Shown: positions 5,912 to 59,505, counted from the first letter of the stretch. The stretch is 64,000 nucleotides of DNA from a virus (IMGVR_UViG_3300032295_002257:1-64000); one strand, 5' to 3'. Made by a program: numbers and translations. The notes: generated by a model from the sequence alone, not told the origin.

Positions 5912-5920
5912 TATAAATAT
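5912..5920 (-). promoter_or_regulatory. Putative late promoter motif ATATTTATA
   Basis: Intergenic, about 40 nt upstream of the start at 5870. Confidence 0.55.
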
Positions 5921-10589: not shown

Positions 10590-13500
10590 CTAATAGAACA
10601 ATCCCAGTATTTGGTTCAATGGGGCGAAAGCGCCAGTCAATTTATAAGTGTTCCCATTATATACAAATACAATACCTTCGTTTGGAACAATCTTATCAAA
10701 CCCACCCAATGCTTCTAATCTTTGTAATTCTAATTTAAGTTTTTCTACTTTTTTAGGGTCTCCAGCTTTTTTAACATCAGCGATAGTTTGGTTTAATCTA
10801 GTCAACATTTGTTTGGTTGCTTCCGCTGGATTTGCGGTTAATACCGATTGCATAAATGAAAGAACATCTGCACCTACACCTAAAAATATTTCTTCGAATT
10901 TCATTAGGTTTTCTTTTGCTATTTTAGCTTGGTCTTTTTTATCAACACCATCAGCCCAAGTTCTTATCTTCTCATCGGTTATAGTTGCAATTCGGAAACT
11001 TTTATCTCCAAAAGCCCATCTTTTAACTAATGCAATCTTTTGTTGAGCATCTAAATTTTTTGCATTCTTTTCCACAAAATCAGTCCACCAAGCCTGATGA
11101 TATTCCCCCACACCATCACTGTCTGATAATCCAAACTCACTTTGGAGTTTAGAAATCATACCCATATATTTGGGTTGTAATTTAGAAAGATCTTCATTCT
11201 TTGGTAATTTTTGCATTGGCGGTCCTTGTATCGTATATTTCGATTGAACATGCTGATTTACTTGCTTAATCATTCCCGCTAATGTCTTAGCTGCCTGCTG
11301 GTCTTCTCCGATTGCAACACCCTCTTCATTATACTCCATTGTTCCGTGGAATACTAACAAAGGTTGGTTGTATGGGATTACGTTTACCGAAGTTGGGTAT
11401 ATTACTTCCAAATTCATAAAACAAGCACCATCTTTAAATATCTTTTTCTTTTGTGGTTCTGATAGTGAACCAATTGCTTTTGATAAATCACTCATAGCAA
11501 AGTTGTAAGCATCGGTTAATCCACCTCTACCAGCAAACTTATCTGCTACCTGTCCTATTGTCATAGCACCCTCACCTTTGTTCTTTAAGTGTGATTTGTT
11601 ACGAGCTGCTACTAATCTACCATTTATCCAACTAATTGCCAATGCCTGCCCATCTGTCTTTTCTCTTGCTACATCTAAATCTCCAGTAAGTGCTTTTTTA
11701 ACTATATTTTTTAAATCTCCAAATGTAAGATTCATTTCAACATCAAACGGATGTGCCATATGTCCATAAGCCCCACCTTCAGTTAGTAGTGATTCATTTA
11801 CTTTACCCGTATCGGTTTTGAAGAAAGGGCCTCTTCTTACAGTTTTAAAATCTAAACTCATTTCGTTTCCAAAAATATCTTTTGGAGAAATAATCTTTAA
11901 TCTAATTGTTCCGTTTTTGTTATCAACACCTAAAGTTTCAAACTCAATTTGAGAATACTTTTTACCTTTATATCCTAAATTCTTACCAGTAATAAATTTA
12001 TGAACCTTCCCACCACTTATCGCTTGAGCTTCTTCTAAATCTTTTAAATCATCATCACTCATTCCTAATCCTCTGTGGTTAACAGCAGGATATGTATGTA
12101 GTGTATTAAATCTAACATATTCATTTATACCCTTATATGATACATTTGGATATTCTTTGGTTACCTTAAGTAAATCTTTTATACCCAAATCGACTTCAAT
12201 AGTTTTTAATTTAAAATTCTTATCGATATTATATAAAGCAACAACTCTATGATGTCCATCTAATATATAACCATCTTTAGATATAATAACAGGTTTTGCT
12301 AAATTAGATCTATCAGTTCCCAATAAACTCTTTACTTTATCTAAGTTTATTTCTTTTTGAGTCATTCCAACCTTAGATACATTTATAGTTTTAGCAGAAA
12401 CCTTAACGCCTACCTCTTTTAAAAATTCCAAATAATCTTTTATATCTTTTGAATTGATTTGAGGCATTTGAGCTCTGTTAACACCTAATGATTTTGATAT
12501 TGTTACCACATCTACATCATTACTTTCAAATTTATATATCTGATTTGATGTTTTATAATCATCATTTCTCATTATAGTTTTTGCAATAAGTTTATTAGCT
12601 TTTTGCATAAACGGGATATTGATATTAGTTCTTTTATCTTTTGCTACTAACTCACCATATTGTTTTAAAAAATCTACAAACTTATTTTTATTCTTTCCCA
12701 ATCTTTTAAAGAATCCAGTAAGTTCTGCTGCTGATATTTCTTTTCCGTTTCTAGGGTCAGTTAATCTATCGAAGAAATGCTTATCAGTAATAACAACATC
12801 CATTGGATTTAATTGCTTATCAGCATATTTGTCAATTTGCTGTAAATCATCCATAGGGATTTCATTAATTACTGATTCGTTATTAAAAATATTTACTCTT
12901 TTAATTATTCTAAAAGTTGCTACTTTCTTACCATTGATTGTTGGCATCCCATGCTCATCTTTACCAATTGATTTTACAACTGTTTTTTTGTTTTTGAATT
13001 TACCCATTAAAATAGTATCACCTATTTCAACATCTAATTTAATTTCTTCATTTACTTTTTCTATAGATGCTAACTTTGTGTAATACTTTGGATCTTCAAA
13101 TAAATGGTCTAATGCTATTTCTTTTGCAACATTTGTATCGGATGTATGTTCTCTCTCTACTTTATATCCTTTCTTAAATTCATCAGTCAATTCACCAATA
13201 GAAACATTATGTTTTTTTGCAATATCACTCAATGATAATTTATCAGCTAACCCACCTTCAATTTCCTCATCAATCTTTTCATAGTAATTGTCTTGAGCAT
13301 CCATCTTTTTTCTCAACACATCTCTTTCTTTTTGTTTTTGAGCTAATTGCTCTTTAGATGGGTATCCCATTGCTAATCCCAAAGCCTCTGACATTTCATT
13401 AGCTATTTCATTTATTTCTTGATTTGAAATAATTTGGTCTTGAGATTCAGTCATTTCCCAATATCTTTTTTCTTTTTTAATAATATTGTTTTTCTTAGGT

Positions 13501-14411
13501 TTTATGGATTTCCACTTATCAACACCTTCAGGTTTTTCAGCAGTTTTTAATGTGCTAGCTTCTACATTTTTAATTTTGTAGTAAACCTTTCTAAATTGAG
13601 AGTCGGTATCTTTACTTTTACCTTTACCTCTCATAAAATCACCTTTTGGTTTATCCAATTGTTTATAACCACCTTGCGTAAACCAAGGTTCAGGTTTACC
13701 ACCATTCAATACTCTCTTCTGTCCATCGGATACATATCCCGTTTCAGGCTCACCCTCACCTTCACCACCATTTGCATTTACTGATGTTTCTGTTATAAAT
13801 GATTCTTTTAAACTATCTAATTTTTTAGTTATTAAATCAAATATAGTTTTATCAAATTTAGGATAAACTTTAGTAAACAATTTCTTTCTTTCTTCAGTTT
13901 CACCATTACCCAACCAATTACGAACATCCGTTCCACTAATTGGATTTGGCTGAGCAGGAGATGCGTAAACGTATCCTTTATCCATATACCCAGCATCAAC
14001 ACTACCTTTGTATGGAGTAAAGTATTTACCACCTAATCTTTGCTCATCTTTTTCACCAACTACAGTAATCAGAGCCGTTGTATCTTCATCGTAGTTTTTT
14101 AGGATTTCCAATGGTGCATACGGATTTTTAACCTGAACTATTTTGTTTGGTGAAATTCCAAACATTTTAGTCATTATGGTTTTCTTTTCCTTAAAATTAA
14201 ATGGAGATTTTTGGTTATCAGTTTTATCCGAAGTTCCTATATAAACATTATCTTTTCCGAATTTTTTAACCAAATGTTCATAAGTTGCGTAGTGACCTTT
14301 GTGAAATGGTTGGAATCTACCTGAATATACTACAACATAATCGGTTACCTTTTCGGATTCCTTTAACAATTCCTCTACTAAATATTCTGAAAGTTGACTC
14401 ATTATTATCAA
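10590..14411 (-). CDS. Multidomain polyprotein: HIGH-family nucleotidyltransferase, DUF5661-like, SH3-like, ParB-like and KxDG ligase-like domains (start may be 14402)
   Basis: SGRFQPFHKGH; KGYKVEREHT...EIALDHLFEDPKYYTKL; EIGDTILMGKFKNKK; KPVIISKDGYILDGHHR; EGGAYGHMAHPF...REKTDGQ. Domains are joined by ITE, KVNE, ESVINE, GINE and ESLLTE linkers. Confidence 0.75.
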   Translation of the reverse strand: MIIMSQLSEYLVEELLKESEKVTDYVVVYSGRFQPFHKGHYATYEHLVKKFGKDNVYIGTSDKTDNQKSPFNFKEKKTIMTKMFGISPNKIVQVKNPYAPLEILKNYDEDTTALITVVGEKDEQRLGGKYFTPYKGSVDAGYMDKGYVYASPAQPNPISGTDVRNWLGNGETEERKKLFTKVYPKFDKTIFDLITKKLDSLKESFITETSVNANGGEGEGEPETGYVSDGQKRVLNGGKPEPWFTQGGYKQLDKPKGDFMRGKGKSKDTDSQFRKVYYKIKNVEASTLKTAEKPEGVDKWKSIKPKKNNIIKKEKRYWEMTESQDQIISNQEINEIANEMSEALGLAMGYPSKEQLAQKQKERDVLRKKMDAQDNYYEKIDEEIEGGLADKLSLSDIAKKHNVSIGELTDEFKKGYKVEREHTSDTNVAKEIALDHLFEDPKYYTKLASIEKVNEEIKLDVEIGDTILMGKFKNKKTVVKSIGKDEHGMPTINGKKVATFRIIKRVNIFNNESVINEIPMDDLQQIDKYADKQLNPMDVVITDKHFFDRLTDPRNGKEISAAELTGFFKRLGKNKNKFVDFLKQYGELVAKDKRTNINIPFMQKANKLIAKTIMRNDDYKTSNQIYKFESNDVDVVTISKSLGVNRAQMPQINSKDIKDYLEFLKEVGVKVSAKTINVSKVGMTQKEINLDKVKSLLGTDRSNLAKPVIISKDGYILDGHHRVVALYNIDKNFKLKTIEVDLGIKDLLKVTKEYPNVSYKGINEYVRFNTLHTYPAVNHRGLGMSDDDLKDLEEAQAISGGKVHKFITGKNLGYKGKKYSQIEFETLGVDNKNGTIRLKIISPKDIFGNEMSLDFKTVRRGPFFKTDTGKVNESLLTEGGAYGHMAHPFDVEMNLTFGDLKNIVKKALTGDLDVAREKTDGQALAISWINGRLVAARNKSHLKNKGEGAMTIGQVADKFAGRGGLTDAYNFAMSDLSKAIGSLSEPQKKKIFKDGACFMNLEVIYPTSVNVIPYNQPLLVFHGTMEYNEEGVAIGEDQQAAKTLAGMIKQVNQHVQSKYTIQGPPMQKLPKNEDLSKLQPKYMGMISKLQSEFGLSDSDGVGEYHQAWWTDFVEKNAKNLDAQQKIALVKRWAFGDKSFRIATITDEKIRTWADGVDKKDQAKIAKENLMKFEEIFLGVGADVLSFMQSVLTANPAEATKQMLTRLNQTIADVKKAGDPKKVEKLKLELQRLEALGGFDKIVPNEGIVFVYNGNTYKLTGAFAPLNQILGLFY

Positions 14412-14442: not shown

Positions 14443-15192
14443 TTATTTTAAATCGGAATAAACCGTAACCCCTTTTTGGAGAACCACCTGCCCAGCAGCT
14501 TGATTTGCAAATGTAATTGCTTTTTCAACATCTTTGGTTGAAATATATTCTTTTGTGAATCCCGCAACAAATGTATCACCAGCTCCACATATATCGATAG
14601 GTTCATCAGTTGTAGCCGGATATACCTTTCCATTATGGGTTGCACCATCTTTATCCATAGTTGCTACGATTTTACCAACTAAATCATGTTCAGCTATTGA
14701 TATTAGATTATTATTACATTCCGTTCGGTTTACTTTTATAAATGTAATATCCCTACACCAACTACCCAACTTCTTTTTGGTATCCAAAATAACCAAATTA
14801 TGTAAAGAACCGATTTTAGCTATATCATCTTCCGTAAGAAATCCTTTACAATAATCAGAAATAACCACTGCTTTATACTTAGATAAATCAGGTAAATTAT
14901 CCATATTTATCCTATCTACATAATCGTGGTCATCTACTCTCAAATACAATTCATTTGTAGTTTCATCAATATAACGAGTTTTTGTTATATTTCCGGTATC
15001 AGTAAGTATATCTACATCAACTCCCATTGCTCCCAAATTATTAGCAGTATTTGCAACCATACCCGCACTATACTTTTCATATAGTGGTTTGAAAACAGGA
15101 GCGTTCCCTTCAGGTGATTTTCTTTCAGAAACCCCATACACTAATACATCAGTGCAATTTTCACCAATAACCAATACTTTAATATCTTCCAT
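14443..15192 (-). CDS. D-glycero-manno-heptose-7-phosphate kinase (HldE/RfaE domain I, PfkB family)
   Basis: VLVIGE, RKSPEGNAPV, TKTRY, SDYCKGFL, DICGAGDTF and FANQAAGQVV parallel RfaE1 (RISPEAPVPV, SDYAKG, DVTGAGDT, ANAAAGVVV). Confidence 0.85.
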   Translation of the reverse strand: MEDIKVLVIGENCTDVLVYGVSERKSPEGNAPVFKPLYEKYSAGMVANTANNLGAMGVDVDILTDTGNITKTRYIDETTNELYLRVDDHDYVDRINMDNLPDLSKYKAVVISDYCKGFLTEDDIAKIGSLHNLVILDTKKKLGSWCRDITFIKVNRTECNNNLISIAEHDLVGKIVATMDKDGATHNGKVYPATTDEPIDICGAGDTFVAGFTKEYISTKDVEKAITFANQAAGQVVLQKGVTVYSDLK

Positions 15193-16337
15193 TATAAAAA
15201 CTTCTTAAGTTCGTTTATAACCATTTCTGAGGTTATTGTTTTTGTACATTCAAATTGTCTTTGTGTTCCTTTGTGGTCCGGGCACCAATTCCAATCGCCA
15301 CCATCTAATTTTATTCTATTAAAACACCCCTCACATTTGCCTGTTGATGCACCTATTCTAACACAATCTCTCATTTCAGCCCACTTATATGAGAACCCAC
15401 TTATCAATACGGTCTTAACTCCCAATCCCCAACTTAACCAACTCAAACCACTACCTATACCAATAAATGCTTCAGATTTTAGCATCTCATCAATTACCCC
15501 ACTAATTGGTCCATTTGGTAATTGAGTTACTCCTTTAGGGTGAGAATTACCCATATAACCATCACCCTCTTTAGATACCAATTTAACTTCATATCCTTTA
15601 CCTTTTAACCAATCAACCACATCCTGCCACCCAGTTGGGTTGTTCCAATATTTTGTTTGTGCAGTTCCGTGAATCGCAATTGTAACTTGTTTGTTAGCCG
15701 GCTTTTGGACTTGTGAGTGCTTTATTTTTGGTCTTACCTCTCTATAAGTTAAACCCAATATATCCGTGCACATTTTTTGCATTGGTTGGGTTTTAGGGTC
15801 TGTTGGATTTTTGTATAAATCTATTTTACCATCTTCTTTATAGAACAATCCCAAAGAATACATAGCGTATAAATTATCAACGCCTGTTCCAGGTGATACA
15901 AATTCAATTTCTGGATATTGTTCTACAAACAAATCATTCATAAATGTAGAACATATAACTTGACATTTATGCTTTTTTCTGAACTCATTGATGTATGGAA
16001 TCCAAGACATTGTATCACCCAATGCTTTAGAATCAAATGCTATATACACTCTTTTATTTTCAGCATTGTAGGTATATGTTCTCCATAACTTACCATCCTC
16101 ATAAACTTCAATTCTCCATTCTATGAAATACTCCATAACACATTTAGTCCACATATTATTTTTAATAGTGGTTTCGTATGGAATTTCTCCAGTTCTATTA
16201 TTAATAAATTTAATATTATAACTAGCTTCTTTACCTCCTAATACTTCTACAGTAGCCCCTTTTATAAAATTAACTTTAAAAGTATTTTCAGGCTCTACTA
16301 TATTATTTTCATTTTTAACTATACCATCGTATATCAT
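15192..16337 (-). CDS. Autotransporter-type protein O-heptosyltransferase (TibC/Aah, BAHT family)
   Basis: ALGDTMSWIPY, KYWNNPTGW, FIGIGSGLSWLSW, LISGF, and the four-Cys iron finger CEGC...WCPDH...RQFEC. The start is set at the ATGA overlap at 16337; the ORF track gives 16346. Confidence 0.85.
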   Translation of the reverse strand: MIYDGIVKNENNIVEPENTFKVNFIKGATVEVLGGKEASYNIKFINNRTGEIPYETTIKNNMWTKCVMEYFIEWRIEVYEDGKLWRTYTYNAENKRVYIAFDSKALGDTMSWIPYINEFRKKHKCQVICSTFMNDLFVEQYPEIEFVSPGTGVDNLYAMYSLGLFYKEDGKIDLYKNPTDPKTQPMQKMCTDILGLTYREVRPKIKHSQVQKPANKQVTIAIHGTAQTKYWNNPTGWQDVVDWLKGKGYEVKLVSKEGDGYMGNSHPKGVTQLPNGPISGVIDEMLKSEAFIGIGSGLSWLSWGLGVKTVLISGFSYKWAEMRDCVRIGASTGKCEGCFNRIKLDGGDWNWCPDHKGTQRQFECTKTITSEMVINELKKFL

Positions 16338-17989
16338 ACTTGCCAAGTTTTTATTGTATTATCTAGCAAAGAATATCCTTCAGCTTGATTACTATATAAT
16401 TTATTTGTAGTGTATCGTAATTCCTTATGGTGGTAAAATATATGATTAAACCAAAGGTCACCAACATCCCATTCACAATCTTTTATTCTATCGTTCCACC
16501 ATTCTCTATCTTTATTTCTAACTAAATACGCATGTGCTAAATCTTGGTTATGACCCGTCTTACTGAAGTGTTCATCTACTTGCTCTTTATATTGGGATGG
16601 GTTATTAGCAAAACTAAGAAAATACACATTATTCGATTCAGCTATTTCGCATGCCTTATAAACAATATCAACAAAGTCATCTACATTTGTATAAATGTAT
16701 GCATCTGCTTCGAACACTAATGTATAATCATAATCTCTATTTAAATTCTCAACAGCTGTTTTATGTGCTAAATAACAACCATAATGTTTACCCGTTATCC
16801 AACCCAATCCAGCACCAGGCCATAATTCACCAGGTTCATTAGTTGGACTTAAATGGTCAGGTCTACGGCAGTGTTCTTTTGGTGCAAAATCTTTATATAC
16901 TTCATTTACAATCGGAACATAATCCATACCATAACTTTCTAATTGTCTGATTGATTTCATACTCAATCTTTCTCTAGTTCCGTATGGAGTTGTTAACAAA
17001 TGTTTGATTTGTATTTTTGGAGTTGGCTTAAATCCCAATTTTAATTCAGGTTGTAGAATATTTAAAATCAATTGCTTAGTATTGATTGTATCATCATTGA
17101 TATAAGTTACCAATTGATTCGTATCATATGTATCTAAGTAAGTGTGTAATTTTCTAAAGATAGAAGGTAATCTATATGAAAGGGCTTCTTTAACCGATAA
17201 AGGATTTAATTCTAATTTAGAACTAAAATAAAACATATCAGCTGCCGCATAGAATTTCTCAACATCGTTTCGTTCACCCCAAACAATACAATTATCAGGT
17301 TTGTCTTTCATCAACGGGCCCCAGTAACTTTCAAAGTTTCCTGCCTGATTTCCTATGAAATGAAATTTAATTTTGTATTTGGATAATTCCTTTGCTATTT
17401 GAAATATTTCAGCTTGATTTTTACCAGGCGAAAATAATCCAACATTTAATACATGCTTCCAATCCGATTCGAATCCTAAATCTTTTTTAAATTTATTTTT
17501 ATCAAATGTATGATTTTCAATAGGATATTCCCAAACTGAAGTTTCTACATTAGTAGATTCAAATACTCTCCTACTCCATTCCGATACTAAAACATATCTA
17601 TCCGGATGATGCGTTATTTCATTTGGATTTGTAAACGAACCATGCGTAGTTACTACAATTTTGTAGTTTCTTTTTGAATTATCAAAAATTTTATCTAATA
17701 CTTCTTTTGATAAATCAAATTGCGGTATTTCGTGAAAATGAATAATATCAGGGTTAAATTTGTTTATAACATCTAATATTTTAGATTTATCATTTCCCAA
17801 AATATGTAAAGGAACTGAATTTCTTATTTTGTTCTTTTGAACTGCAAATTCCTCACCACCTACATTATTGATTTCAACAACTTCTATTTCAAAATCATTT
17901 TTAAAGGATTCTATTTGTTTATAGAGATATTGCGGTTGTCCGCCCGTTGATAGGTGCGGAGCTATATAGAGTAACTTTCGTTTTAACAT
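16334..17989 (-). CDS. Bifunctional glycosyltransferase (GT4-like N-terminus, GT25/GT-A-like C-terminus)
   Basis: HLSTGGQPQY, VGLFSPGKNQ and FYAAADMFYFSSKLELNPLSVKEALS (GT-B); HYGCYLAH, LVFEADA and AHAYLV (GT25-like). Confidence 0.8.
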   Translation of the reverse strand: MLKRKLLYIAPHLSTGGQPQYLYKQIESFKNDFEIEVVEINNVGGEEFAVQKNKIRNSVPLHILGNDKSKILDVINKFNPDIIHFHEIPQFDLSKEVLDKIFDNSKRNYKIVVTTHGSFTNPNEITHHPDRYVLVSEWSRRVFESTNVETSVWEYPIENHTFDKNKFKKDLGFESDWKHVLNVGLFSPGKNQAEIFQIAKELSKYKIKFHFIGNQAGNFESYWGPLMKDKPDNCIVWGERNDVEKFYAAADMFYFSSKLELNPLSVKEALSYRLPSIFRKLHTYLDTYDTNQLVTYINDDTINTKQLILNILQPELKLGFKPTPKIQIKHLLTTPYGTRERLSMKSIRQLESYGMDYVPIVNEVYKDFAPKEHCRRPDHLSPTNEPGELWPGAGLGWITGKHYGCYLAHKTAVENLNRDYDYTLVFEADAYIYTNVDDFVDIVYKACEIAESNNVYFLSFANNPSQYKEQVDEHFSKTGHNQDLAHAYLVRNKDREWWNDRIKDCEWDVGDLWFNHIFYHHKELRYTTNKLYSNQAEGYSLLDNTIKTWQV

Positions 17990-18005
17990 GGATATAACAA
18001 TTTAT

Positions 18006-18037
18006 CAAAGATACGAAAAAAATTCGAATTTACCAAA
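18006..18037 (-). promoter_or_regulatory. Bacteroidota-type sigma70 promoter
   Basis: TTTG-N20-TATCTTTG upstream of the GT/heptosyltransferase/kinase operon. Confidence 0.8.
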
Positions 18038-18038
18038 T

Positions 18039-18320
18039 TTATTCCGCTACATCAAAAACCACAACACCTTCAACTAAATCAATTTCACCCTTTGGATATG
18101 TAGTTTCTAATGCTTTCAATTCTTCTTTGATACCCGCTAAAGCCGCATCATACATTTCTAAAACATCTTTTTTTGCTTGACTTGTAGTTTGTAGTTCAGT
18201 TGTAACCTCTCTCAAACGAAGTTCGATTTCCCCTAACCCCAATACACAATCATTTGCTTTTGTTTGTAGTTCTCTTAATTTGGTTAATACCAATTCATCT
18301 AATTTTTCTTTCTTTTGCAT
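18039..18320 (-). CDS. Small coiled-coil protein, possible fibre assembly chaperone
   Basis: 93 aa with heptad pattern and C-terminal YPKGEIDLVEG; directly downstream of the tail fibre. Confidence 0.5.
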   Translation of the reverse strand: MQKKEKLDELVLTKLRELQTKANDCVLGLGEIELRLREVTTELQTTSQAKKDVLEMYDAALAGIKEELKALETTYPKGEIDLVEGVVVFDVAE

Positions 18321-18344
18321 TGTAAACTAGTTTTTATGTTCGTA

Positions 18345-18353
18345 TATAAATAT
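18345..18353 (-). promoter_or_regulatory. Putative late promoter motif ATATTTATA
   Basis: Intergenic, upstream of the start at 18320. Confidence 0.55.
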
Positions 18354-18367
18354 ATATTTTTTAAATA

Positions 18368-21300
18368 TTAAGAATTATTAAGTTTCTCTTCTAATTTTTC
18401 TACCTTTTCATTTAATTCTTGAACTGCCTTCCATAAAGCAAATATTAAATTGGTTTTTGCAATACTCTGAGGGACAGTTTTCTTTTGTCCTGGATTATCC
18501 ACATCATCAATTTCTTCATAATCCACAAATTCTTCTAATCCAGCTGCTTCCAATTCTTCCGCAATTATACCTATTTGTTGTGAGGGATTTCCTTCATCCG
18601 TATCAACATTCCAATAGAATGTTCTAACAGGCGTATTTTTTATCGAATCCAATAAAGATGTATGATTCCAATCTAAAATAGTATTTTTAAATCGTCTAGA
18701 TGAATCAAATCTACAAACTTGCCAAATGTTTGCACCCGAATCGATTCTTATTTGCATCTCTCTTAATGTACCACCCACTGTACTTGCACCAACTATATTT
18801 TTTAATAACAGAGAGGGTCTTTGACTACCACCTACTGAAACTGTATTTAAAAATGCTTCATTTCCAGATGATGCTAAATTCCAAGTTAGTGTACCAACAT
18901 CTCTGATATCATTGGCGTTCATATCAATATCACCCGCGCCGGCTTCAATACTTATACTATCCGCCGTACCACTACCACTAATTTGTAAAGTTGTATTTAC
19001 CGCATCACTTTCTAATCGGTACCATCCCTTTGAAGTAACTGTTGGTAGGTCTGTACTTGAGTTTCGTTCTGCTTTAAAGTATTTACTCGTACCAGATGCA
19101 ACTTGAACACCATCACTTGTCAATTCAACAATATTAGTAAGTTTATTAAATTGAAATTGAGGAGGTATTTCAGTTACCGAAATATCAACTTGTCCTGTAG
19201 ATATATAACCCGTTAATTTATACCAGGTATATGCGTAATATGTAGTTCCACCTTCCAGATTAATTGTTTGATTTGTAGCTGCGGTTATATACGAAAGTGT
19301 ACTTGGTGAATACAATACCATACTTCCACCAAAAACAAAATCTGCTAAAGTGCCAGCTGGATCATCAGTAGTAAAAACATCAACACCTACTTCTATACCA
19401 ACATATCCATTCCAAGGCCCAAATTCAGCCGCTACATAACTACCACCCCCAAAATCAATATCATTATCAGCCCAAGTTCCAGTTCCACTAGTTAAATTTA
19501 TAGCAACTCCATTCCCCGCAGTGTTATGATATACTTTATCATTAGTTAAATATGTATAGAAGTTGATAGAAGTTGCTGAAATACCAGCGGAGATAGTGGA
19601 TGGGGTTACATTTATTGTAGAACCCCCTACACTTGATAATGCACCTCTTTTAAAAACTAAATCAGGATTTGATCCAGAATTTTCTTTTATATAAATACTG
19701 TTAGCCGATGCATCTAAAAATATTGTTCCCGCATTACTTCTAATTAAACCAGGCTGAATAATCCATCCATTTGAACCACCTAAAAATCCACTTGTTGCAG
19801 TAACATTACCATTTATTGTTAAGTTAACACCATCAAAAAATAATTTATCTGATAACGAAAATCTTCCTAAACTATCTAAATAAGCAGGTGTTGTTACGGA
19901 GTTAAATACACCACCCGCAGCAGGTCCTATATAAATTGAACGAGTTACTGAATTTCTTGCATCTAAATAAATCGCAGGTGTTGATAGAGATGCACTACCA
20001 ACCGTAAATAAAGTACTTATATAACCCGCGCCACCTGCTAAAATTGGAGATGTTACGGAAGTACTACTTATAAAAGTTCCACCACTATAACTACCATTTG
20101 CTATTGAATCTGCAATTGCTTTTGCTCCCTGATAAGCTGCACTAGCCGTTACGTTTGCGTATGCTACACCTTGATTATAAGATGCTGTTCCAACATTTTG
20201 TGCATATGTTTGAGTTGCAGCATCCCCACCCAATACCGTAATACTTCCAGCTACACTTAAAGTGCCGCCTGAAAAACTCATAAAATTTGTGCTATCACCA
20301 ACTTTGAATTGACCCGTATCATACCAATAGTTATTTGAATTGATATACAACCCATCATTAGTTGAATTTACATCAGGTCCCAATAGCATACCACCCGCGT
20401 TCAATATACCACTCAATTCTAATTGAGAACCATCCCATCGCATGTATCGTGTATTACCCGAATTAACCAATGACATCATTGGGGTTTTTGTTGATGCTAC
20501 TGTTTTCGTTCCCATAAAGATACCAGTATTACCATATCCAATCACACCCGAAGATGTTTGGTCATTATCAGCACCAACAACTCCCGTTTGTCCAATTGCT
20601 ATATAAGGGTCAACTCTACCACCTGCCAAAACTATATTAGCAAATTTCTCAGCTCCACCATTATTACCAACATTAATTGTATTCTTAACAAATGATTCTT
20701 CAAATATTGCTAACTTAGCTGCTACAAAGAATTCTTCTTTACCCAAATATTCCCAATACTGATTCTTAGTTCCCTTTGTAGGTTCGCCAACAACAGTTGG
20801 AGGAGCTTGTGCTCCAACAAGAATATATCCACTAGGTGGTGTATTTCCAATATAATAATCTAATGATGATGAATTATAATAAGTTCTTGCTCCTGATTTT
20901 TCAAGTGATGCCCAATAATATGTTTCATTTATTGCTCCTGGATAAATTACCGAATCTCTTCTTTTATTTGCTACATCAAATTCATAATCTAAACTGCCAG
21001 ACCAAACTCCTCTCATAATAAGACCAGGTCCTATTGCCCCTTCGTATTGAACACTTAAAGATTGAGTTTTATAATAAACCGCTTTACCATCCTCTACATC
21101 AATTTCATAAATTATTTGAGCAGATGCACTTAATGGTAATAATGATGAAGTATTTCTTAAATAATTCCACTGCGATATATCACCAATACTAAAAACACCA
21201 TTTGGATTTGGTAAAACCGAACCTAATGTTAAACCATTAGCTGGTGTTATGTGAGAAGATGTAGAATATAATGTTGCTCTATATTGACCATTTGGTATTA

Positions 21301-24300
21301 CAGTTCCTAATTGATCAAATTGTGATGCTGAATATGCATTTACAGCTATAAGTGGTGTTCCACCTTTTGTTGCTAATATTTCAGTTCCTGTTCCCGCAAC
21401 TGTAATTTCACCATATACATCCGCAAATATAGATGAATTTTCATTTGTTAATGATACATTGTATGGAGTTCCTCCCGATTGAACTCCACTTATTGTAACC
21501 TGATCTTCTGCAAAAATTTGTGCGTTTACATCACCACTTCCATCTCTCAAAGCAACTTTAAAAATTGCAGTTTCGCCAGGCGCAGCTGAATCACCAGATG
21601 ATAATGAAAGTGTATCACCACCAAAGTTTATTGATGTTGGTGGTGTTAATTCAACATCATTTTTAAAGAATTGAAAGTATGCTGAACCTGTTGTATTGTA
21701 TGCGGTGGCTGTTAATGTAATATCTCCAGCAGGCGATAAAACAACACCATCACCATCATAACTTACAACGTTTGCCGTTGCTGATATTGATATTGCTCTA
21801 GCTGCCGTTCCATTTGAAACTTTTGTAAACGATTGGGTAACAAATGAATTTAAAATGGATGAAGTGTAATATGGTTGATAAGTAAAATCATATTGTAAAC
21901 TTCCTAAATTTTCTGTGAAAGCGGTTGCTGCTTGAACTATTACTTCAGTTGAATCCAATGAATTTGAAGCATAACTACCAGGTGCAACAATACCATCGGT
22001 ATCTATGTTAATAAAATATGTTCCATTTTTTTGTTTAGAACCATTTGCCCCATTTTGATCATACACCAAATAGGTGTTTCCTTGCTTTACTCTTACCGAT
22101 GTTACCGATGGTGTGAAATCCAATGGGTCTCCGTTTTCATTTGCTTTAATTACAACTGTTGTTGGATTAACTTCAAATGAAATGGGTTCTTCACCAATCA
22201 AACCATCAGGAACTATAGTAAATAATTTATCTACATTTACTGATGCGGAAGTCCAAGGTTCAGTATAAGTAAAAGATGTTATCAATTGCCTATTTTGATT
22301 ATTAGGCATTCCTTCTAAATATGTTGCGGCATCTGGTCTCGAAGGTATTATGTTTCCTATCTCATCAAAAGCAACAATTGTTATATTTGGGTCACAACTA
22401 TGTGTTACATAATTTATCCAATATTCTGCAACAAAATCATTGTTTAAAGACATTGATGGATAAACCTCAATTGAACAACTTAGTGGATTTTCAAAAGTTC
22501 CTCTTTTATAGAAAGAAGCGGTTGCCGATGAAAATGTTGGAATAAATCGATTACCATCAGTTGGTAATTTTGGAGTTGGATTTACACCAAATGCATCTGC
22601 ATCATATAAAACTATACCGGCATCTAAACCATCTTGCAAATCAGTTAATGTTAATGATGTTAGAATTGAAGCAGAGTAGTTATTTGAAGATGATGGAATT
22701 AAATAAATTGTTCTTTGTCCATCTATTGAATCTCTATTAAATCGTGCGTTATAATCCAACTGACCAGAACCAGTAACACCAGCTGATAATCCTAAAACAA
22801 ATCCTTTAGAGGATGCTTCGGTTAGAGTAATATATGTAGAACCCGATTGAACAAATAATTTGTAATCGGATTTACCTAAAGGTAATCCACTTTGAATATT
22901 TAATTCATTAATACCATCTATTCTTACTGCCTGAATTTCTAATGAAGATGATGCATCTGAGTTTCGGATTACCGTTCCATTATAAGGTCTGATTTCATAA
23001 TTTACACCACCCTTACCATCACTAACTCTTGTGATAATAATTGTATCACTAACACCTTCAACGGCTGCAGTATATTCTATAAATTGAACAACAATATCAT
23101 CTTTAGAACCTGTAAAGTTTTGAACTGATAAACTATAATTGTTTGGATCGATAACCGTCAATAAACCAGGATATTGTTCGCCTGGTCCGTATGATGATGC
23201 TGAGATTTCGTTATTGAAAAAATCAAATGAGCGTGATGTGAATGTGATTGAGCCCGTTATGAAATTAGTTTCCGCTTCTATTAAAATTGTTGTTGGTGCA
23301 ACTGGGTTTCCTGTACCAGAACCCGAATCAAATTGAAAATATAATGAAGTTGGAACTAAATTTATACTCTTATTGATTACGTTTAAATTACCACCACTAA
23401 ATGTTTTTGTTGCTAATACTTCAACAGGTATATAATTGTTGTTAATATCATAAAACTCAAAACGAAAATCAAAAGTTTCAGTTTCTAAGTTCCTTTGAAC
23501 AGGTTGTATAAATGTTATCTCATCAGGTGAAAACGATGTTTCTTGTGATGCTCTTAAACTAACATCGGAAATATACCAATCATTTCCTTTAACTTCAAAA
23601 TAAAGTCTTGCAGTATCAAATGAATCAGCAATTATATTTTCATTTATATTTGTTTTTTGCAAATATGGATTTGATGATGTGATAGTTGTAATTTCTTGAG
23701 TAATGGTTTTAGAATCTTTAGTTCCCTGCAAATAAACTTTTATATAATTTGTAGATGAAATAGAGCCACTAATTCTAACATTCATATCTAATGTATATTC
23801 TACACCAGAACTTATATCTATAGATTTAGATGTATAAAATTGATTAGCACCATTACTATTTAACTTAACCGAATTATATAGAAAATCCTGATTGAATGTT
23901 TTGGTTAAATTTGCTGATGATGTTAACCAGTAGTTTGATATAGTGTATGGTGTAAATAAACCATAATTTTCTTGGTTTCGTTCGGATGATTCTAAATCAA
24001 CTAATATTTCATTAGATTCTAATGCAATTTCTTGCACAAACTGAAAATCCGATACTTCAGATTGTGATTTACGGAATACTTTAACTCTAGCAACATCACC
24101 TACAAATGTAGTTAAATCTGTGATGTTTATTTTTGCAAAAGAACCACTCAATGCAGTTCCAATTGCACTATCCTCTACTAAATAAGTAAAACTAGCAGTA
24201 TATGGTTGTACATCGAAAGATGCTACTAATCCATTTGAAGAATATGGATTACTTACTATTAATTCTTTATTTGTTACTACATTAGATGGATTGAATGTGA

Positions 24301-25000
24301 TACCTAAATTAGGCATAGTAACACTTCCATTTAATACTGAACCACTCCAATTTGTAGAATCCGTAATTGTTAGTAAATAAGATGATGGTAACGAAAAAGA
24401 TGATAATCTAACACCATCACCCGGAACTAAAGGAGTTCCACTAACAATACCACTTTGTTGTATAATAGTTGGAGTTGCTGTAAATATAGGTCTAGATATT
24501 TCTTCTATTGCTACTTTTGGCCTTCTATAAAATCTTACCTTATCTTCGTTTGCAAGTAATTTATTTACTTTAAATGATTTTTCCCATTTTACATTATATA
24601 TCCCCTTCCATTCATCGGGTATATCTCTTACAATATCATCTGCATCCAAATACTCTTTAAGTTCTCCCAATACAGTTATAGTAGCCTGCCCTATTGGAGT
24701 ATCATCATATATATAAACAGCAACTACTTTAGAAGTACCTTCATAATATTCAGGTATACCATTACCAGGCTCCCAATAAACAGGATTACCATCAACATCT
24801 ATTATTTCAATTTTAATTTCAGTAGATTCTAATAGATATTCAGAACCTTCTATTAAAAATCCGTTTTTACCACCACTAAAAGATTCTTTAAATTCGGTTA
24901 TTCTAAAATAATCGGAATTTGGATTTGTATCAATTATAAATGTATTAAACGAACTTAAATTTTGAAGTTGCGTATCTCCGTATTTTTTAATTCTTGCCAT
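18368..25000 (-). CDS. Giant tail fibre/spike with C-terminal peptidase S74 intramolecular chaperone
   Basis: 2210 aa, Ser/Thr/Gly-rich beta structure; C-terminal DSSRRFKNTI...IGIIAEEL...LWKAVQELNEKVEKLEEKL. Confidence 0.85.
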   Translation of the reverse strand: MARIKKYGDTQLQNLSSFNTFIIDTNPNSDYFRITEFKESFSGGKNGFLIEGSEYLLESTEIKIEIIDVDGNPVYWEPGNGIPEYYEGTSKVVAVYIYDDTPIGQATITVLGELKEYLDADDIVRDIPDEWKGIYNVKWEKSFKVNKLLANEDKVRFYRRPKVAIEEISRPIFTATPTIIQQSGIVSGTPLVPGDGVRLSSFSLPSSYLLTITDSTNWSGSVLNGSVTMPNLGITFNPSNVVTNKELIVSNPYSSNGLVASFDVQPYTASFTYLVEDSAIGTALSGSFAKINITDLTTFVGDVARVKVFRKSQSEVSDFQFVQEIALESNEILVDLESSERNQENYGLFTPYTISNYWLTSSANLTKTFNQDFLYNSVKLNSNGANQFYTSKSIDISSGVEYTLDMNVRISGSISSTNYIKVYLQGTKDSKTITQEITTITSSNPYLQKTNINENIIADSFDTARLYFEVKGNDWYISDVSLRASQETSFSPDEITFIQPVQRNLETETFDFRFEFYDINNNYIPVEVLATKTFSGGNLNVINKSINLVPTSLYFQFDSGSGTGNPVAPTTILIEAETNFITGSITFTSRSFDFFNNEISASSYGPGEQYPGLLTVIDPNNYSLSVQNFTGSKDDIVVQFIEYTAAVEGVSDTIIITRVSDGKGGVNYEIRPYNGTVIRNSDASSSLEIQAVRIDGINELNIQSGLPLGKSDYKLFVQSGSTYITLTEASSKGFVLGLSAGVTGSGQLDYNARFNRDSIDGQRTIYLIPSSSNNYSASILTSLTLTDLQDGLDAGIVLYDADAFGVNPTPKLPTDGNRFIPTFSSATASFYKRGTFENPLSCSIEVYPSMSLNNDFVAEYWINYVTHSCDPNITIVAFDEIGNIIPSRPDAATYLEGMPNNQNRQLITSFTYTEPWTSASVNVDKLFTIVPDGLIGEEPISFEVNPTTVVIKANENGDPLDFTPSVTSVRVKQGNTYLVYDQNGANGSKQKNGTYFINIDTDGIVAPGSYASNSLDSTEVIVQAATAFTENLGSLQYDFTYQPYYTSSILNSFVTQSFTKVSNGTAARAISISATANVVSYDGDGVVLSPAGDITLTATAYNTTGSAYFQFFKNDVELTPPTSINFGGDTLSLSSGDSAAPGETAIFKVALRDGSGDVNAQIFAEDQVTISGVQSGGTPYNVSLTNENSSIFADVYGEITVAGTGTEILATKGGTPLIAVNAYSASQFDQLGTVIPNGQYRATLYSTSSHITPANGLTLGSVLPNPNGVFSIGDISQWNYLRNTSSLLPLSASAQIIYEIDVEDGKAVYYKTQSLSVQYEGAIGPGLIMRGVWSGSLDYEFDVANKRRDSVIYPGAINETYYWASLEKSGARTYYNSSSLDYYIGNTPPSGYILVGAQAPPTVVGEPTKGTKNQYWEYLGKEEFFVAAKLAIFEESFVKNTINVGNNGGAEKFANIVLAGGRVDPYIAIGQTGVVGADNDQTSSGVIGYGNTGIFMGTKTVASTKTPMMSLVNSGNTRYMRWDGSQLELSGILNAGGMLLGPDVNSTNDGLYINSNNYWYDTGQFKVGDSTNFMSFSGGTLSVAGSITVLGGDAATQTYAQNVGTASYNQGVAYANVTASAAYQGAKAIADSIANGSYSGGTFISSTSVTSPILAGGAGYISTLFTVGSASLSTPAIYLDARNSVTRSIYIGPAAGGVFNSVTTPAYLDSLGRFSLSDKLFFDGVNLTINGNVTATSGFLGGSNGWIIQPGLIRSNAGTIFLDASANSIYIKENSGSNPDLVFKRGALSSVGGSTINVTPSTISAGISATSINFYTYLTNDKVYHNTAGNGVAINLTSGTGTWADNDIDFGGGSYVAAEFGPWNGYVGIEVGVDVFTTDDPAGTLADFVFGGSMVLYSPSTLSYITAATNQTINLEGGTTYYAYTWYKLTGYISTGQVDISVTEIPPQFQFNKLTNIVELTSDGVQVASGTSKYFKAERNSSTDLPTVTSKGWYRLESDAVNTTLQISGSGTADSISIEAGAGDIDMNANDIRDVGTLTWNLASSGNEAFLNTVSVGGSQRPSLLLKNIVGASTVGGTLREMQIRIDSGANIWQVCRFDSSRRFKNTILDWNHTSLLDSIKNTPVRTFYWNVDTDEGNPSQQIGIIAEELEAAGLEEFVDYEEIDDVDNPGQKKTVPQSIAKTNLIFALWKAVQELNEKVEKLEEKLNNS

Positions 25001-25024
25001 ATCTTATTGTATAGGAATATTTTT

Positions 25025-25033
25025 AATAAATAT
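25025..25033 (-). promoter_or_regulatory. Putative late promoter motif ATATTTATT
   Basis: Upstream of the tail fibre start at 25000. Confidence 0.5.
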
Positions 25034-25054
25034 AACCAAAAAACAAAAATCTTA

Positions 25055-25063
25055 ATACTTATT
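25055..25063 (+). promoter_or_regulatory. Variant late motif ATACTTATT in plus orientation
   Basis: One mismatch to the motif; lies upstream of the only plus-strand operon. Confidence 0.4.
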
Positions 25064-25090
25064 TTAGAAAACTAAAGAAATATAAAGAAT

Positions 25091-25768
25091 ATGAAGGTTG
25101 CGTTACTACTATCGGGCAAATTTAGAGGTAGTTATATACCATTTAACTATTTACAAAACAATTTACTCAACAAATATAATCCTGATATTTTTATAAATTA
25201 CAATTATAAGAACGATGATGATATCGAATGTGATGAAAGTGAGTTGATTTCCATATATAATCCAAAATTGATAAATTTTACAAAAACACCGGATATTGTA
25301 AAGGAAAAAATAGATATGGTAAATGGATATGAAGTAGCAGGTGAATCAAACCCTTCAAGCGTTTTTAATATGTGGTGGGGGATTTATCAGGCAAATGAAT
25401 TAAAGAAGAAATATGAGGAGGAGAATGGGTTTAAATACGATATTGTAATACGAACCAGATTCGATATAGAAATATTAGAGGAAGTTGAACTTAGAAATTG
25501 GAATAATAGTCTTTTTATACCAATGGGGTCTGATCATAGAGATGGATTCAATGATTTTCTAGCTTATGGCAAATCTCACATTATGGATTACTATTGTTCT
25601 AATTTTCATCATTTAGTTGATTATATTAAGGGAGGAGAACTAATACATCCAGAAAGATTACTAAGACGGCATTTGCAAGATTTCAAATGCACATTCATAC
25701 GAACATATATGCCAATGCGTTTAAGGGGAGTATTGGTTAACCAAATAGATTATTGTGTAAATCCCTAA
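25091..25768 (+). CDS. Putative glycosyltransferase (KVALLLSG...YDIVIRTRFD family)
   Basis: MKVALLLSGKFR, YDIVIRTRFDI, GFNDFLAYG and HPERLL are typical of a viral GT-A-like family (DUF7796-like, unverified). Confidence 0.6.
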   Translation: MKVALLLSGKFRGSYIPFNYLQNNLLNKYNPDIFINYNYKNDDDIECDESELISIYNPKLINFTKTPDIVKEKIDMVNGYEVAGESNPSSVFNMWWGIYQANELKKKYEEENGFKYDIVIRTRFDIEILEEVELRNWNNSLFIPMGSDHRDGFNDFLAYGKSHIMDYYCSNFHHLVDYIKGGELIHPERLLRRHLQDFKCTFIRTYMPMRLRGVLVNQIDYCVNP

Positions 25769-55265: not shown

Positions 55266-55297
55266 CAAATATACAACTATTTTTGTATAATTCCAAA
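55266..55297 (-). promoter_or_regulatory. Bacteroidota-type sigma70 promoter
   Basis: TTTG-N20-TATATTTG upstream of the start at 55243. Confidence 0.8.
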
Positions 55298-59449: not shown

Positions 59450-59473
59450 TATTTGATATAATTTGTTGTTAAA

Positions 59474-59505
59474 CAAATATACGAAAAATAGCTGAATTTA
59501 CCAAA
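59474..59505 (-). promoter_or_regulatory. Bacteroidota-type sigma70 promoter
   Basis: TTTG-N20-TATATTTG upstream of uvsE. Confidence 0.8.

What the first reader, a model, noticed from the sequence alone, without database searches (positions are those of the whole stretch)
14443..25768. Phage-encoded protein O-heptosylation module bracketing a giant tail fibre
Seen: one operon with its own host-type promoter at 18006-18037 encodes a GT4/GT25 fusion, a TibC/Aah-type heptosyltransferase and an HldE-type heptose-7-phosphate kinase. The heptosyltransferase retains LGD at the catalytic Asp position, KYWNN..GW, SGLSWL and all four iron-finger Cys. The operon lies just downstream of a 2210-aa Ser/Thr/Gly-rich fibre, and a further GT-like gene sits on the fibre's other side. 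Established: TibC/Aah are iron-containing dodecamers that transfer heptose from ADP-heptose to Ser of beta-helical autotransporter adhesins, and HldE makes the precursor. Inference: the phage heptosylates its own fibre or other virion proteins, or remodels host surface proteins for superinfection exclusion, and boosts ADP-heptose supply to do so. ADP-heptose is also an ALPK1 agonist in animals. GmhA, GmhB and the adenylyltransferase half of HldE are not recognisable in this window.
Basis: partly seen in the sequence, partly recalled or inferred. Interest (0 to 1): 0.88.

Follow-up and report, generated by a model that had tools for sequence, protein, structure and literature searches.

The report
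Phage TibC-type protein glycosylation cassette
A large lake phage, probably of Bacteroidota, carries a true relative of the E. coli enzyme that puts heptose on adhesins, plus sugar-extending enzymes and a heptose kinase, most likely to sugar-coat its own fibre proteins; the neighbouring giant fibre is not clearly the target, and nothing has been tested at the bench.

Summary
At 14443-17989 (minus strand) three coupled genes follow a Bacteroidota-type promoter:
- a GT4 plus GT25-like two-domain transferase;
- a full-length BAHT/TibC-family enzyme: TIGR04414 278 bits (cut-off 200), model TM 0.82 to TibC, catalytic Asp and all four iron-finger Cys kept;
- a compact HldA-like kinase.
A 2210-aa fibre with an S74 chaperone end lies upstream. 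A GT-A-fold gene lies beyond it.

The cassette is syntenic in 80 IMG/VR relatives and under purifying selection. This window holds a reduced form: no methyltransferase domain, no HldC, kinase only.

Eleven of the 13 closest bacterial or MAG homologues, and two distant phages, sit next to proline-poor (Gly-Thr/Ser-Ser)n collagen-like genes. The window has no such run in any frame. Two long relatives carry giant genes of that kind 25-55 kb past the terminase, which is beyond this window's end.

Best reading: a phage protein O-glycosylation module whose likeliest acceptors are such fibres, and possibly also the adjacent fibre.

This scan has found the same cassette before on other DNA. I found no paper on it. 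Verdict: a new variant of a known kind.

The parts
25091..25768 (+). p225: DUF7796 protein with a GT-A (GT6-like) glycosyltransferase fold. It is an accessory gene on the opposite strand.
   Evidence: Pfam DUF7796 is weak. The AF2 model has pLDDT 94.7. Foldseek top hits are BoGT6a and human GTA/GTB, prob 1.0, TM about 0.5. It is found only in the window and L001. It is absent where SbcC abuts the fibre (L021, L024, L046, L067).
18368..25000 (-). Giant fibre-like protein, 2210 aa. It has a conserved N-terminal domain (aa 1-338; 23987-25000), a variable distal part and a C-terminal intramolecular chaperone. It is a candidate acceptor but not a demonstrated one.
   Evidence: ORF, composition. The N-terminal domain is shared with Mel-JY01 and megaphage LR756508. 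It is 50-58% identical over aa 1-1100 in relatives and 29-41% in the distal part. It has no GXY run of 5 or more triplets. It has no PHROG family.
18524..18703 (-). Peptidase_S74 intramolecular chaperone domain of the fibre (aa 2100-2159).
   Evidence: PF13884, 26.6 bits against a cut-off of 22.
18039..18320 (-). p93: small predicted coiled-coil protein between the fibre and the GT gene, with its own TATTTATA-type upstream motif. Function unknown.
   Evidence: ORF, present in 69 of 80 relatives. A 120-136-aa paralogue lies after HldC/kinase in relatives but not in the window. dN/dS 0.17.
18006..18037 (-). Bacteroidota-type promoter (-33 TTTG, -7 TAnnTTTG) of the GT-BAHT-kinase operon.
   Evidence: Sequence. 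14 matches against 5.5 expected, and four intergenic copies share an extended motif. Kept in 66 of 67 relatives, with invariant hexamer blocks and a variable spacer.
17030..17989 (-). GT4 (GT-B fold) domain of the 551-aa two-domain glycosyltransferase.
   Evidence: PF00534 42 bits, PF13692 32.7 bits, PF13477 23.9 bits. Fused to the BAHT domain in Mel-JY01, LR756501, L087 and L076.
16337..17017 (-). GT25-like C-terminal domain of the same protein. In most relatives a Methyltransf_24 domain sits between the two halves; it is missing here.
   Evidence: PF01755 only E 0.064. Atlas feature score 0.96 and structure TM 0.71 to GT25 clusters. The MTase domain is seen in L003 (PF13578, 69 bits), and the window protein aligns to aa 1-341 and 510-748 of the L003 protein.
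15192..16346 (-). BAHT/TibC-family protein O-heptosyltransferase homologue, 384 aa. The catalytic Asp111 codon is at 16014-16016. The iron-finger Cys338/341/355/367 lie in 15246-15335.
   Evidence: TIGR04414 278 bits against 200. TibC E 2e-54 with the alignment shown. These residues are invariant in a 24-sequence alignment. The AF2 model has pLDDT 84.6 and an N-terminal beta-barrel. Foldseek gives TM 0.82 to 4RAP, against TM 0.36-0.52 for LPS GT9 enzymes. dN/dS 0.04.
14443..15192 (-). Compact (249 aa) HldA/HldE-domain-I-like sugar kinase. Its start overlaps the BAHT stop.
   Evidence: TIGR02198 92 bits (best family, under the cut-off) and PfkB 58 bits. HldA 4E84 is the best PDB hit. 1699 homologues, nearly all about 247 aa. 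phrog_8133. dN/dS 0.08.

Best explanation
This is a phage-encoded cytoplasmic protein O-glycosylation cassette.

Shown:
- The 384-aa gene is a full-length member of the TibC/Aah (BAHT) family, with the catalytic Asp, the nucleotide-sugar motifs, the N-terminal beta-barrel and the four iron-binding Cys.
- It is translationally coupled to a GT4 plus GT25-like two-domain transferase and to a compact HldA-like kinase.
- All three are transcribed from a conserved Bacteroidota sigma-A-type promoter of the class that also precedes this phage's UV-endonuclease, deformylase-like and HD-domain genes.
- All three are under purifying selection.

Inferred:
- During infection the BAHT enzyme puts the first sugar, most likely heptose from ADP-heptose, on Ser/Thr of a fibrous phage protein.
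- The GT4/GT25-like enzyme extends it. In other phages that enzyme is fused to the BAHT domain in one polypeptide.
- The kinase raises flux through the host's heptose pathway. GmhA, GmhB and HldC must come from the host in this lineage.
- The likeliest acceptors are proline-poor (Gly-Ser/Thr-Ser)n collagen-like giant fibre proteins. Two long relatives encode these 25-55 kb beyond the terminase, which is outside this window.
- The adjacent 2210-aa fibre is a second, weaker candidate.
For: Enzyme identity.

Operon and promoter.

Purifying selection (dN/dS 0.04-0.10).

One functional unit:
- Fibre-p93-GT-BAHT synteny holds in 80 relatives.
- GT4-BAHT fusions occur in Mel-JY01, megaphage LR756501, L087 and L076.
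- 131 of the best 150 cluster representatives are fusions longer than 500 aa.

Heptose link:
- A 128-aa HldC-type gene (TIGR02199, 90-96 bits, best family) follows BAHT in 42 of 77 relatives, with the kinase in 28 of those.
- The kinase's best family and best PDB hit are heptose-7-P kinases.
- 110 of 151 genomes sampled from the class of the reference MAG G004 (titled an uncultured Bacteroides, so taken as Bacteroidia; the tool names no group) have an HldC-type gene over the cut-off.

Acceptor:
- 11 of 13 bacterial or MAG loci with the closest homologues have a GTS-repeat ORF 38-2205 nt away. So do Mel-JY01 and LR756501.
- About 40% of relatives' adjacent fibres carry 5-11-triplet GTS runs.
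- G002 and G003 carry giant ORFs with 444/348 and 220/137 triplets.
Against: - No glycan, activity or expression has been measured.
- The window's own genome is not held, so GTS-repeat genes are inferred from relatives with only 64-65% identical BAHT.
- The window has no such repeat in any frame.
- 33 of 77 relatives have neither HldC nor the kinase, so the heptose link is not obligatory.
- The kinase is about 70 residues shorter than HldA and scores far under the curated cut-off.
- GmhA and GmhB were not found in the ORFs scanned or in the relatives G002 and G003.
- Known BAHT acceptors are single-chain beta-helices of autotransporters, not trimeric fibres or collagen-like repeats.
Confidence: 0.6

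Rival explanations
1. One reading: the adjacent 2210-aa fibre is the main or only acceptor. The cassette is a fibre-maturation module, placed downstream of the fibre gene as fibre chaperones are.
For: - The order fibre-p93-GT-BAHT is invariant in all relatives where the contig reaches that far.
- Compared with LR756508, the cassette is inserted exactly between the fibre homologue and the next gene.
- The fibre is 20% Ser+Thr.
- About 40% of relatives' fibres carry short GTS runs.
Against: - The synteny reflects one ancestral insertion, so it counts as one observation.
- The window's fibre has no GTS run.
- Its Ser/Thr content equals that of other structural ORFs.
- The operon has a different promoter class from its neighbours p93 and big1273.
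- The independent pairings of this enzyme branch are with collagen-like repeats.
Confidence: 0.2
2. Host-directed. The enzymes glycosylate host envelope or secreted proteins, such as adhesins or the phage receptor, in the infected cell. The effect would be superinfection exclusion or host takeover.
For: - The promoter is of the host sigma-A class shared with non-structural genes.
- PHROGs files the GT4 relatives under 'moron, auxiliary metabolic gene and host takeover'.
- Known BAHT enzymes act on secreted bacterial adhesins (PMC4358343).
Against: - The phage group looks lytic and T4-like, and no lysogeny genes were seen in the window.
- The cassette lies inside the structural and packaging region.
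- The pairing with phage-encoded GTS-repeat fibres recurs.
- No host acceptor can be named.
Confidence: 0.08
3. The fold and family are right but the sugar donor is not ADP-heptose. Another nucleotide sugar would be used, and the kinase would act on a different sugar phosphate.
For: - 33 of 77 relatives carry neither HldC nor the kinase.
- Both the kinase and the relatives' HldC score well under their curated equivalog cut-offs.
- The kinase is a shortened form.
Against: - The KYWNN..GW and SGLSWL donor-site motifs are kept and invariant across the branch.
- The accessory genes' best families are the two HldE halves, not other sugar-activating enzymes.
- HldC-type genes are common in the sampled host-class genomes.
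Confidence: 0.12

Closest known systems
TibC (ETEC) and Aah (AIDA-I-associated): bacterial autotransporter heptosyltransferases (BAHT; TIGR04414; PDB 4RAP/4RB4; PMC4358343)
   Same: Same family and fold over the full length: 32% identity and TM 0.82. [quoted passage not shown]
   Different: - Encoded by a phage of a probable Bacteroidota host, with no autotransporter nearby.
- Coupled, and in relatives fused, to GT4/GT25-like and methyltransferase domains that imply a longer glycan.
- The branch pairs with (Gly-Thr/Ser-Ser)n collagen-like or fibre genes rather than beta-helical passenger domains.
- Dodecamer formation and heptose use are untested.
[quoted passage not shown]
   Same: The kinase's best family and best structure hit are HldE domain I and HldA, and the PfkB GAGD motif is present. 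Relatives add a stand-alone HldC-type adenylyltransferase next to it.
   Different: - Compact at about 247 aa; roughly 70 residues of HldA have no counterpart.
- It scores 92 bits against a 345-bit cut-off.
- This lineage has the kinase without HldC.
- GmhA and GmhB were not found.
Virus-encoded virion glycosylation. Mycobacteriophage capsid and tail glycosylation by phage glycosyltransferases, and chlorovirus PBCV-1 capsid glycosylation with the three-domain A064R enzyme (two transferases plus a methyltransferase). Both are recalled from my own knowledge; the mycobacteriophage work is cited by papers found.
   Same: A virus carries its own transferases near structural genes to decorate its own particle. 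The relatives' GT4-methyltransferase-GT25-like enzyme has the same logic as A064R.
   Different: The initiating enzyme here is a BAHT-type, iron-finger, ADP-heptose-type enzyme not reported from any virus in the literature searched. The acceptor class differs too: fibres or collagen-like repeats.
Flavobacterium phage vB_FspM_immuto and Microcystis phage Mel-JY01, the closest cultured phages
   Same: TerL is 57% and 56% identical, with shared order primase - exonuclease ... NMNAT-like multi-domain protein ... TerL - portal. Mel-JY01 also has a BAHT domain (44% identical).
   Different: Immuto has no BAHT match. Neither the fibre nor the GT cassette was found in the 33.6-kb immuto stretch compared, and a tblastn of the fibre against the phage collection matched only Mel-JY01 and LR756508. 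In Mel-JY01 the BAHT domain is the C-terminus of a 1226-aa fusion annotated 'methyltransferase FkbM'.

Membership tests
BAHT (TibC/Aah) family, TIGR04414 | Full-length match to the family model above the curated cut-off | tested here: met
   278.4 bits against a cut-off of 200; profile positions 10-373 of 374.
BAHT (TibC/Aah) family, TIGR04414 | N-terminal flattened beta-barrel preceding the GT-B-like catalytic domain. This distinguishes BAHT enzymes from LPS GT9 heptosyltransferases. | tested here: met
   The model has eight strands at residues 22-104. The alignment to TibC starts at residue 21. TM is 0.82 to 4RAP against 0.36-0.52 for WaaC/WaaF.
BAHT (TibC/Aah) family, TIGR04414 | Catalytic Asp (TibC D110; the D110A mutant is inactive, PMC4358343) | tested here: met
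   Asp111 in ALGDT aligns with TibC LGD. It is invariant in 24 sequences.
BAHT (TibC/Aah) family, TIGR04414 | Four-Cys 1Fe-0S iron finger (TibC Cys339/342/358/370) | tested here: met
   Cys338/341/355/367 align and are invariant. Iron binding itself was not tested.
BAHT (TibC/Aah) family, TIGR04414 | Ring dodecamer through the beta-hairpin thumb and back-to-back dimers | not testable with these tools
   Only a monomer model was made. The iron-finger loop 345-354 has pLDDT under 50.
BAHT (TibC/Aah) family, TIGR04414 | Uses ADP-heptose as donor | not testable with these tools
   Indirect evidence only: the donor-site motifs are kept, and HldC- and HldA-type genes lie adjacent in relatives.
BAHT (TibC/Aah) family, TIGR04414 | Acceptor is the beta-helical passenger domain of an autotransporter adhesin encoded nearby | tested here: not met
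   No autotransporter is in the operon, and none showed among the window ORFs scanned; not all ORFs were scanned. The neighbours are a phage fibre and, in other members of the branch, GTS collagen-like genes. So this is a family member by sequence and fold that does not fit the family's named acceptor.
HldE domain I / HldA heptose-7-phosphate kinase, TIGR02198 | Score above the equivalog cut-off over the full 315-position model | tested here: not met
   92 bits against 345. The match covers profile positions 102-304 plus a short N-terminal stretch. It is still the best family by a wide margin, so this is 'HldA-like', not a proven equivalog.
Glycosyltransferase family 4 (GT-B) | Pfam Glycos_transf_1 / Glyco_trans_4 domains above the gathering score | tested here: met
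   PF00534 42.1 bits against 26.4, and PF13477 23.9 against 23.4.
Glycosyltransferase family 25 | Pfam PF01755 above the gathering score | tested here: inconclusive
   13.6 bits against 24. Atlas features score 0.96 and structure TM 0.71 to GT25 clusters.
Phage tail fibre or tailspike with an intramolecular chaperone | C-terminal Peptidase_S74 chaperone domain | tested here: met
   PF13884 26.6 bits against 22, at aa 2100-2159. Attachment to the tail was not tested, and there is no PHROG match.

The most novel reading that the evidence does not exclude
The TibC/Aah family is not mainly an autotransporter-specific virulence accessory. It has a large environmental branch of hundreds of 50%-identity clusters, mostly fused to further transferases, in phages and free-living bacteria. 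The native acceptors of that branch would be proline-poor (Gly-Thr/Ser-Ser)n collagen-like and fibre proteins. On this reading, abundant freshwater phages of Bacteroidota build heptose-initiated, extended and sometimes methylated glycans on their own giant fibres. They would tune host heptose metabolism with interchangeable HldC and HldA genes to do so.
Probability: 0.35. Interest if true: 0.78.

Novelty: new variant of a known kind. Interest (0 to 1): 0.64.

Why it matters
BAHT enzymes are known only as partners of proteobacterial autotransporter adhesins. A phage-borne, widely distributed branch would add a new acceptor class and a new biological setting for the family. Its size: 265 IMG/VR contigs, about 2300 proteins at 90% clustering, and 733 clusters at E up to 1e-30. 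It is coupled to extending transferases and heptose-activating genes. It would also add a second bacterial-virus lineage, after the mycobacteriophages, that glycosylates its own particle, here with an unusual sugar.

It is directly testable in E. coli, which makes ADP-heptose. Co-expression with repeat or fibre fragments, read out by mass spectrometry, would settle the donor and the acceptor.

For phage ecology, a glycan coat on giant fibres could affect host range, protease resistance and particle stickiness in lakes.

Tried and rejected
1. The N-terminal cytidylyltransferase-like domain of the 1273-aa neighbour (10590-14411) as the missing HldC. Rejected:
   - its motif (GRFQPFHKGH) and its best family and PDB hits are NMN adenylyltransferases;
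   - the domain is kept in relatives whether or not they carry a true HldC;
   - the gene has its own upstream motif.
2. GmhA and GmhB. None in G002 or G003. No SIS or HAD domain in the 20 window ORFs scanned. The scan was not exhaustive.
3. Collagen-like or GTS runs in the fibre or anywhere in the window. None in six frames.
4. Sigma-70 and terminator consensus scans gave no more sites than shuffled sequence and were uninformative.
5. Extending the window's own genome failed:
   - the assembly is not held;
   - the exact-protein look-up found nothing;
   - the nearest relatives' contigs end near the capsid genes;
6. DNA megablast of the cassette against cultured phages found no match.
7. Literature searches for a phage BAHT or ADP-heptose fibre glycosylation found nothing relevant.
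8. A DNA-modification role was considered and set aside. The family match is to a protein O-transferase over its full length, and no base-modification genes are linked to the operon.

Full report
WHAT IS THERE

The window is about 30% G+C phage DNA with nearly all genes on the minus strand. It encodes:
- a T4-type large terminase (8262-9848), portal (5938-7725), prohead protease and a baseplate wedge protein;
- primase and an SbcCD-like nuclease.

The closest cultured phages are Flavobacterium phage vB_FspM_immuto (TerL 57% identical) and Microcystis phage Mel-JY01 (56%). The window's own assembly is not held.

Reading the minus strand from high to low coordinates, the finding's region is:
- SbcCD;
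- p225, on the plus strand;
- the 2210-aa fibre;
- p93;
- the promoter;
- the 551-aa glycosyltransferase;
- the 384-aa BAHT homologue;
- the 249-aa kinase;
- a 1273-aa multi-domain protein;
- a 227-aa protein;
- TerL.

THE ENZYMES

BAHT homologue (384 aa):
- It matches TIGR04414 ('autotransporter strand-loop-strand O-heptosyltransferase') at 278 bits against a cut-off of 200, over the whole model. LPS heptosyltransferase models score under 18 bits.
- It aligns with TibC (PDB 4RAP) from residue 19 to 379 at E 2e-54. The alignment keeps ALGD (TibC D110), KYWNN-x2-GW, SGLSWL and all four Cys.
- PMC4358343 states that D110A is inactive and that Cys339/342/358/370 hold the ferric ion.
- These residues are invariant in an alignment of 24 phage and bacterial homologues.
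- An AlphaFold model (pLDDT 84.6) shows the N-terminal beta-barrel. It superposes on TibC with TM 0.82, while WaaC and WaaF reach only 0.36-0.52.
The gene is a family member by sequence and fold.

Glycosyltransferase (551 aa):
- It has a clear GT4 half.
- Its C-terminal half is GT25-like only by weak sequence evidence and by Atlas features and structure.

Kinase (249 aa):
- Its best family is HldE domain I (92 bits, well under the 345-bit cut-off) and its best structure is Burkholderia HldA.
- It is a compact form that is conserved in length across about 1700 homologues.

p225:
- It has a confident GT-A fold most like GT6 enzymes.

PROMOTER AND OPERON

The sequence at 18006-18037 reads TTTG-N20-TATCTTTG. 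This is the Bacteroidota -33/-7 pattern; the consensus is from my own knowledge.
- The pattern occurs 14 times against 5.5 expected.
- Four intergenic minus-strand copies share an extended motif. They lie upstream of the GT gene, a deformylase-like gene, a UvdE endonuclease gene and an HD-domain gene.
- The motif is kept upstream of the GT gene in 66 of 67 relatives. The two hexamer blocks are invariant and the spacer drifts.
- The flanking genes p93 and the 1273-aa gene are instead preceded by TATTTATA, a motif found in about a dozen intergenic gaps.
- GT, BAHT and kinase overlap by 13 nt and 1 nt.

So this is one operon, in a promoter class shared with non-structural genes. It also points to a Bacteroidota host.

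COMPARATIVE ANATOMY

265 IMG/VR contigs encode a homologue 64-92% identical. About 2330 proteins match at E up to 1e-10.

In the 80 best loci the order fibre - p93 - GT - BAHT - [HldC] - [kinase] - [p93-like] - big protein - 227-aa - TerL is constant.
- The usual GT is 722-749 aa, with a Methyltransf_24/TylF-like domain between the two transferase halves. The window's version lacks it.
- The 128-aa ORF after BAHT in relatives is HldC-type (TIGR02199, 90-96 bits).

Of the 77 loci with enough downstream sequence:
- 33 have neither HldC nor the kinase;
- 28 have both;
- 14 have HldC only;
- 2 have the kinase only. These are the window's nearest kin, L001 and L002. A further relative, L110, also has the kinase only.

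Within this kinase-only lineage, dN/dS is 0.10 for the GT, 0.04 for BAHT and 0.08 for the kinase. All three are therefore maintained.

Megaphage LR756508 (TerL 46%) has the fibre N-terminal homologue directly followed by the big protein. The cassette is therefore an insertion.

GT4 and BAHT are fused in one polypeptide in Mel-JY01 (1226 aa), megaphage LR756501 (738 aa), L087 (957 aa) and L076 (762 aa). Among the best 150 cluster representatives, 131 are longer than 500 aa, mostly with the BAHT domain at the C-terminus. This fusion pattern argues that the transferases act on the same product.

THE ACCEPTOR

The adjacent fibre:
- It is Ser/Thr/Gly-rich, but no more so than other structural ORFs.
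- Its link to the cassette is a single historical event.

The independent pairings of this enzyme branch:
- In Methylobacter luteus, the 51%-identical homologue lies just after a secreted 287-aa protein made of (Gly-Thr-Ala/Ser)n runs, among housekeeping genes.
- Overall, 11 of 13 bacterial or MAG loci have such a repeat ORF 38-2205 nt from the BAHT gene. So do Mel-JY01 and LR756501.
- About 40% of the relatives' giant fibres contain short runs of this type.

The window has no run of three or more such triplets in any frame. That is not the end of the matter. The two long relatives G002 (136 kb) and G003 (71 kb) encode, 25-55 kb beyond TerL:
- giant ORFs of 4539 and 3735 aa, with 444 and 348 triplets in runs, Ser 24-25%, Gly 18-19% and Pro 2%;
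- giant ORFs of 4717 and 3558 aa, with 220 and 137 triplets.

In the window only 8 kb lies beyond TerL, so the equivalent region is outside it. I therefore favour these collagen-like giant fibres as the main acceptors and keep the adjacent fibre as a weaker candidate. This step is inference. It rests on relatives with 64-65% identical BAHT.

THE DONOR

The HldC- and HldA-type neighbours and the kept donor-site motifs point to ADP-heptose.
- GmhA and GmhB were not found in the window ORFs scanned or in G002 and G003.
- The NMNAT-like domain of the 1273-aa neighbour is not a substitute for HldC.
- HldC-type genes exceed the curated cut-off in 110 of 151 genomes sampled from the class of the reference MAG G004. 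G004 is titled an uncultured Bacteroides, so I take that class to be Bacteroidia; the tool itself names no group. One genome in that sample, G094, is flagged unpublished; only the tally is used here.
- A host supply is therefore plausible. The phage genes look like optional boosters.
- Why this lineage keeps the kinase alone is unexplained.

KNOWN OR NEW

- No paper on a phage BAHT was found.
- PHROGs has no family for it.
- Only four GenBank phage records contain a homologue. Three of those records carry no annotation, and in Mel-JY01 it lies under a gene labelled 'methyltransferase FkbM'.
- JGI's pipeline labels the metagenomic copies by the TIGRFAM name.
- Earlier notes of this scan describe the same cassette, and the collagen-like pairing, in many other genomes. 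I reproduced the pairing independently here.
- This window adds a reduced variant: no methyltransferase, no HldC, an extra GT-A gene, and a fibre without repeats.

Verdict: a real and well-supported enzyme assignment, with a probable but untested virion-glycosylation role. It is a new variant of a known kind.

Noticed in passing
window 10590-14411 (-): A 1273-aa multi-domain protein. It has an N-terminal NMN-adenylyltransferase-like domain (GRFQPFHKGH ... ISGTDVR), a DUF5661 domain, a ParB-like DGHHR motif and a conserved C-terminal domain with a KxDG ligase-like motif. Homologues lie just upstream of TerL in immuto (annotated NadR), Mel-JY01 and LR756508. The middle part varies in length (782-1521 aa in relatives).
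   Followed up: partly
window intergenic gaps at 5912, 8236, 10552, 14429, 18345, 31751, 32660, 34629, 46106, 50483, 62092: TATTTATA on the coding (minus) strand lies about 18-45 nt upstream of many gene starts. This is a candidate phage-specific, perhaps late, promoter motif. The total count is not above chance, but the placement is almost entirely intergenic.
   Followed up: partly
window 55266-55297, 59474-59505, 62779-62810 (-): Three further copies of the extended Bacteroidota-type promoter (TTTGG..CGTATnTTTG). They lie upstream of a deformylase-like gene, a UvdE UV-endonuclease gene and an HD-domain gene.
   Followed up: partly
window 18039-18320 (-); L003:12313-12702; L080:11582-11986: p93 is a small coiled-coil protein. 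In most relatives a 120-136-aa paralogue (27-34% identical) lies at the other end of the glycosylation cassette, so the cassette is flanked by two copies. The window has only one copy. Function unknown.
   Followed up: no
window 55474-55860 (-): A 128-aa cupin-domain protein with weak matches to sugar isomerase families (D-lyxose isomerase, FdtA/WxcM, mannose-6-P isomerase C-terminus). It may be a sugar-modifying enzyme. It is not GmhA.
   Followed up: no
G002 contig 64109-104167 (loci L101-L103); G003 contig 26231-65526 (loci L107-L109): Relatives carry a block of three giant genes just before the tail-sheath-like gene: 3058-4800 aa, 3735-4539 aa and 3558-4717 aa. Two of them are built largely of (Gly-Ser/Thr-Ser)n triplets, with one run of about 810 triplets.
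   Followed up: partly
L084:6941-9143 (Methylobacter luteus chromosome): A minimal bacterial pair: a secreted 287-aa protein with two (Gly-Thr-Ala/Ser)n runs, each followed by a repeated Cys-containing domain, then a stand-alone BAHT homologue. The pair lies between mfd and unrelated housekeeping genes. It would make a simple system for testing the acceptor hypothesis.
   Followed up: partly
window 56831-57877, 57882-58241, 58559-59476, 61534-62013 (-): Auxiliary genes: thymidylate synthase, a 4HBT thioesterase, a UvdE endonuclease and an Hsp20 small heat-shock protein.
   Followed up: no
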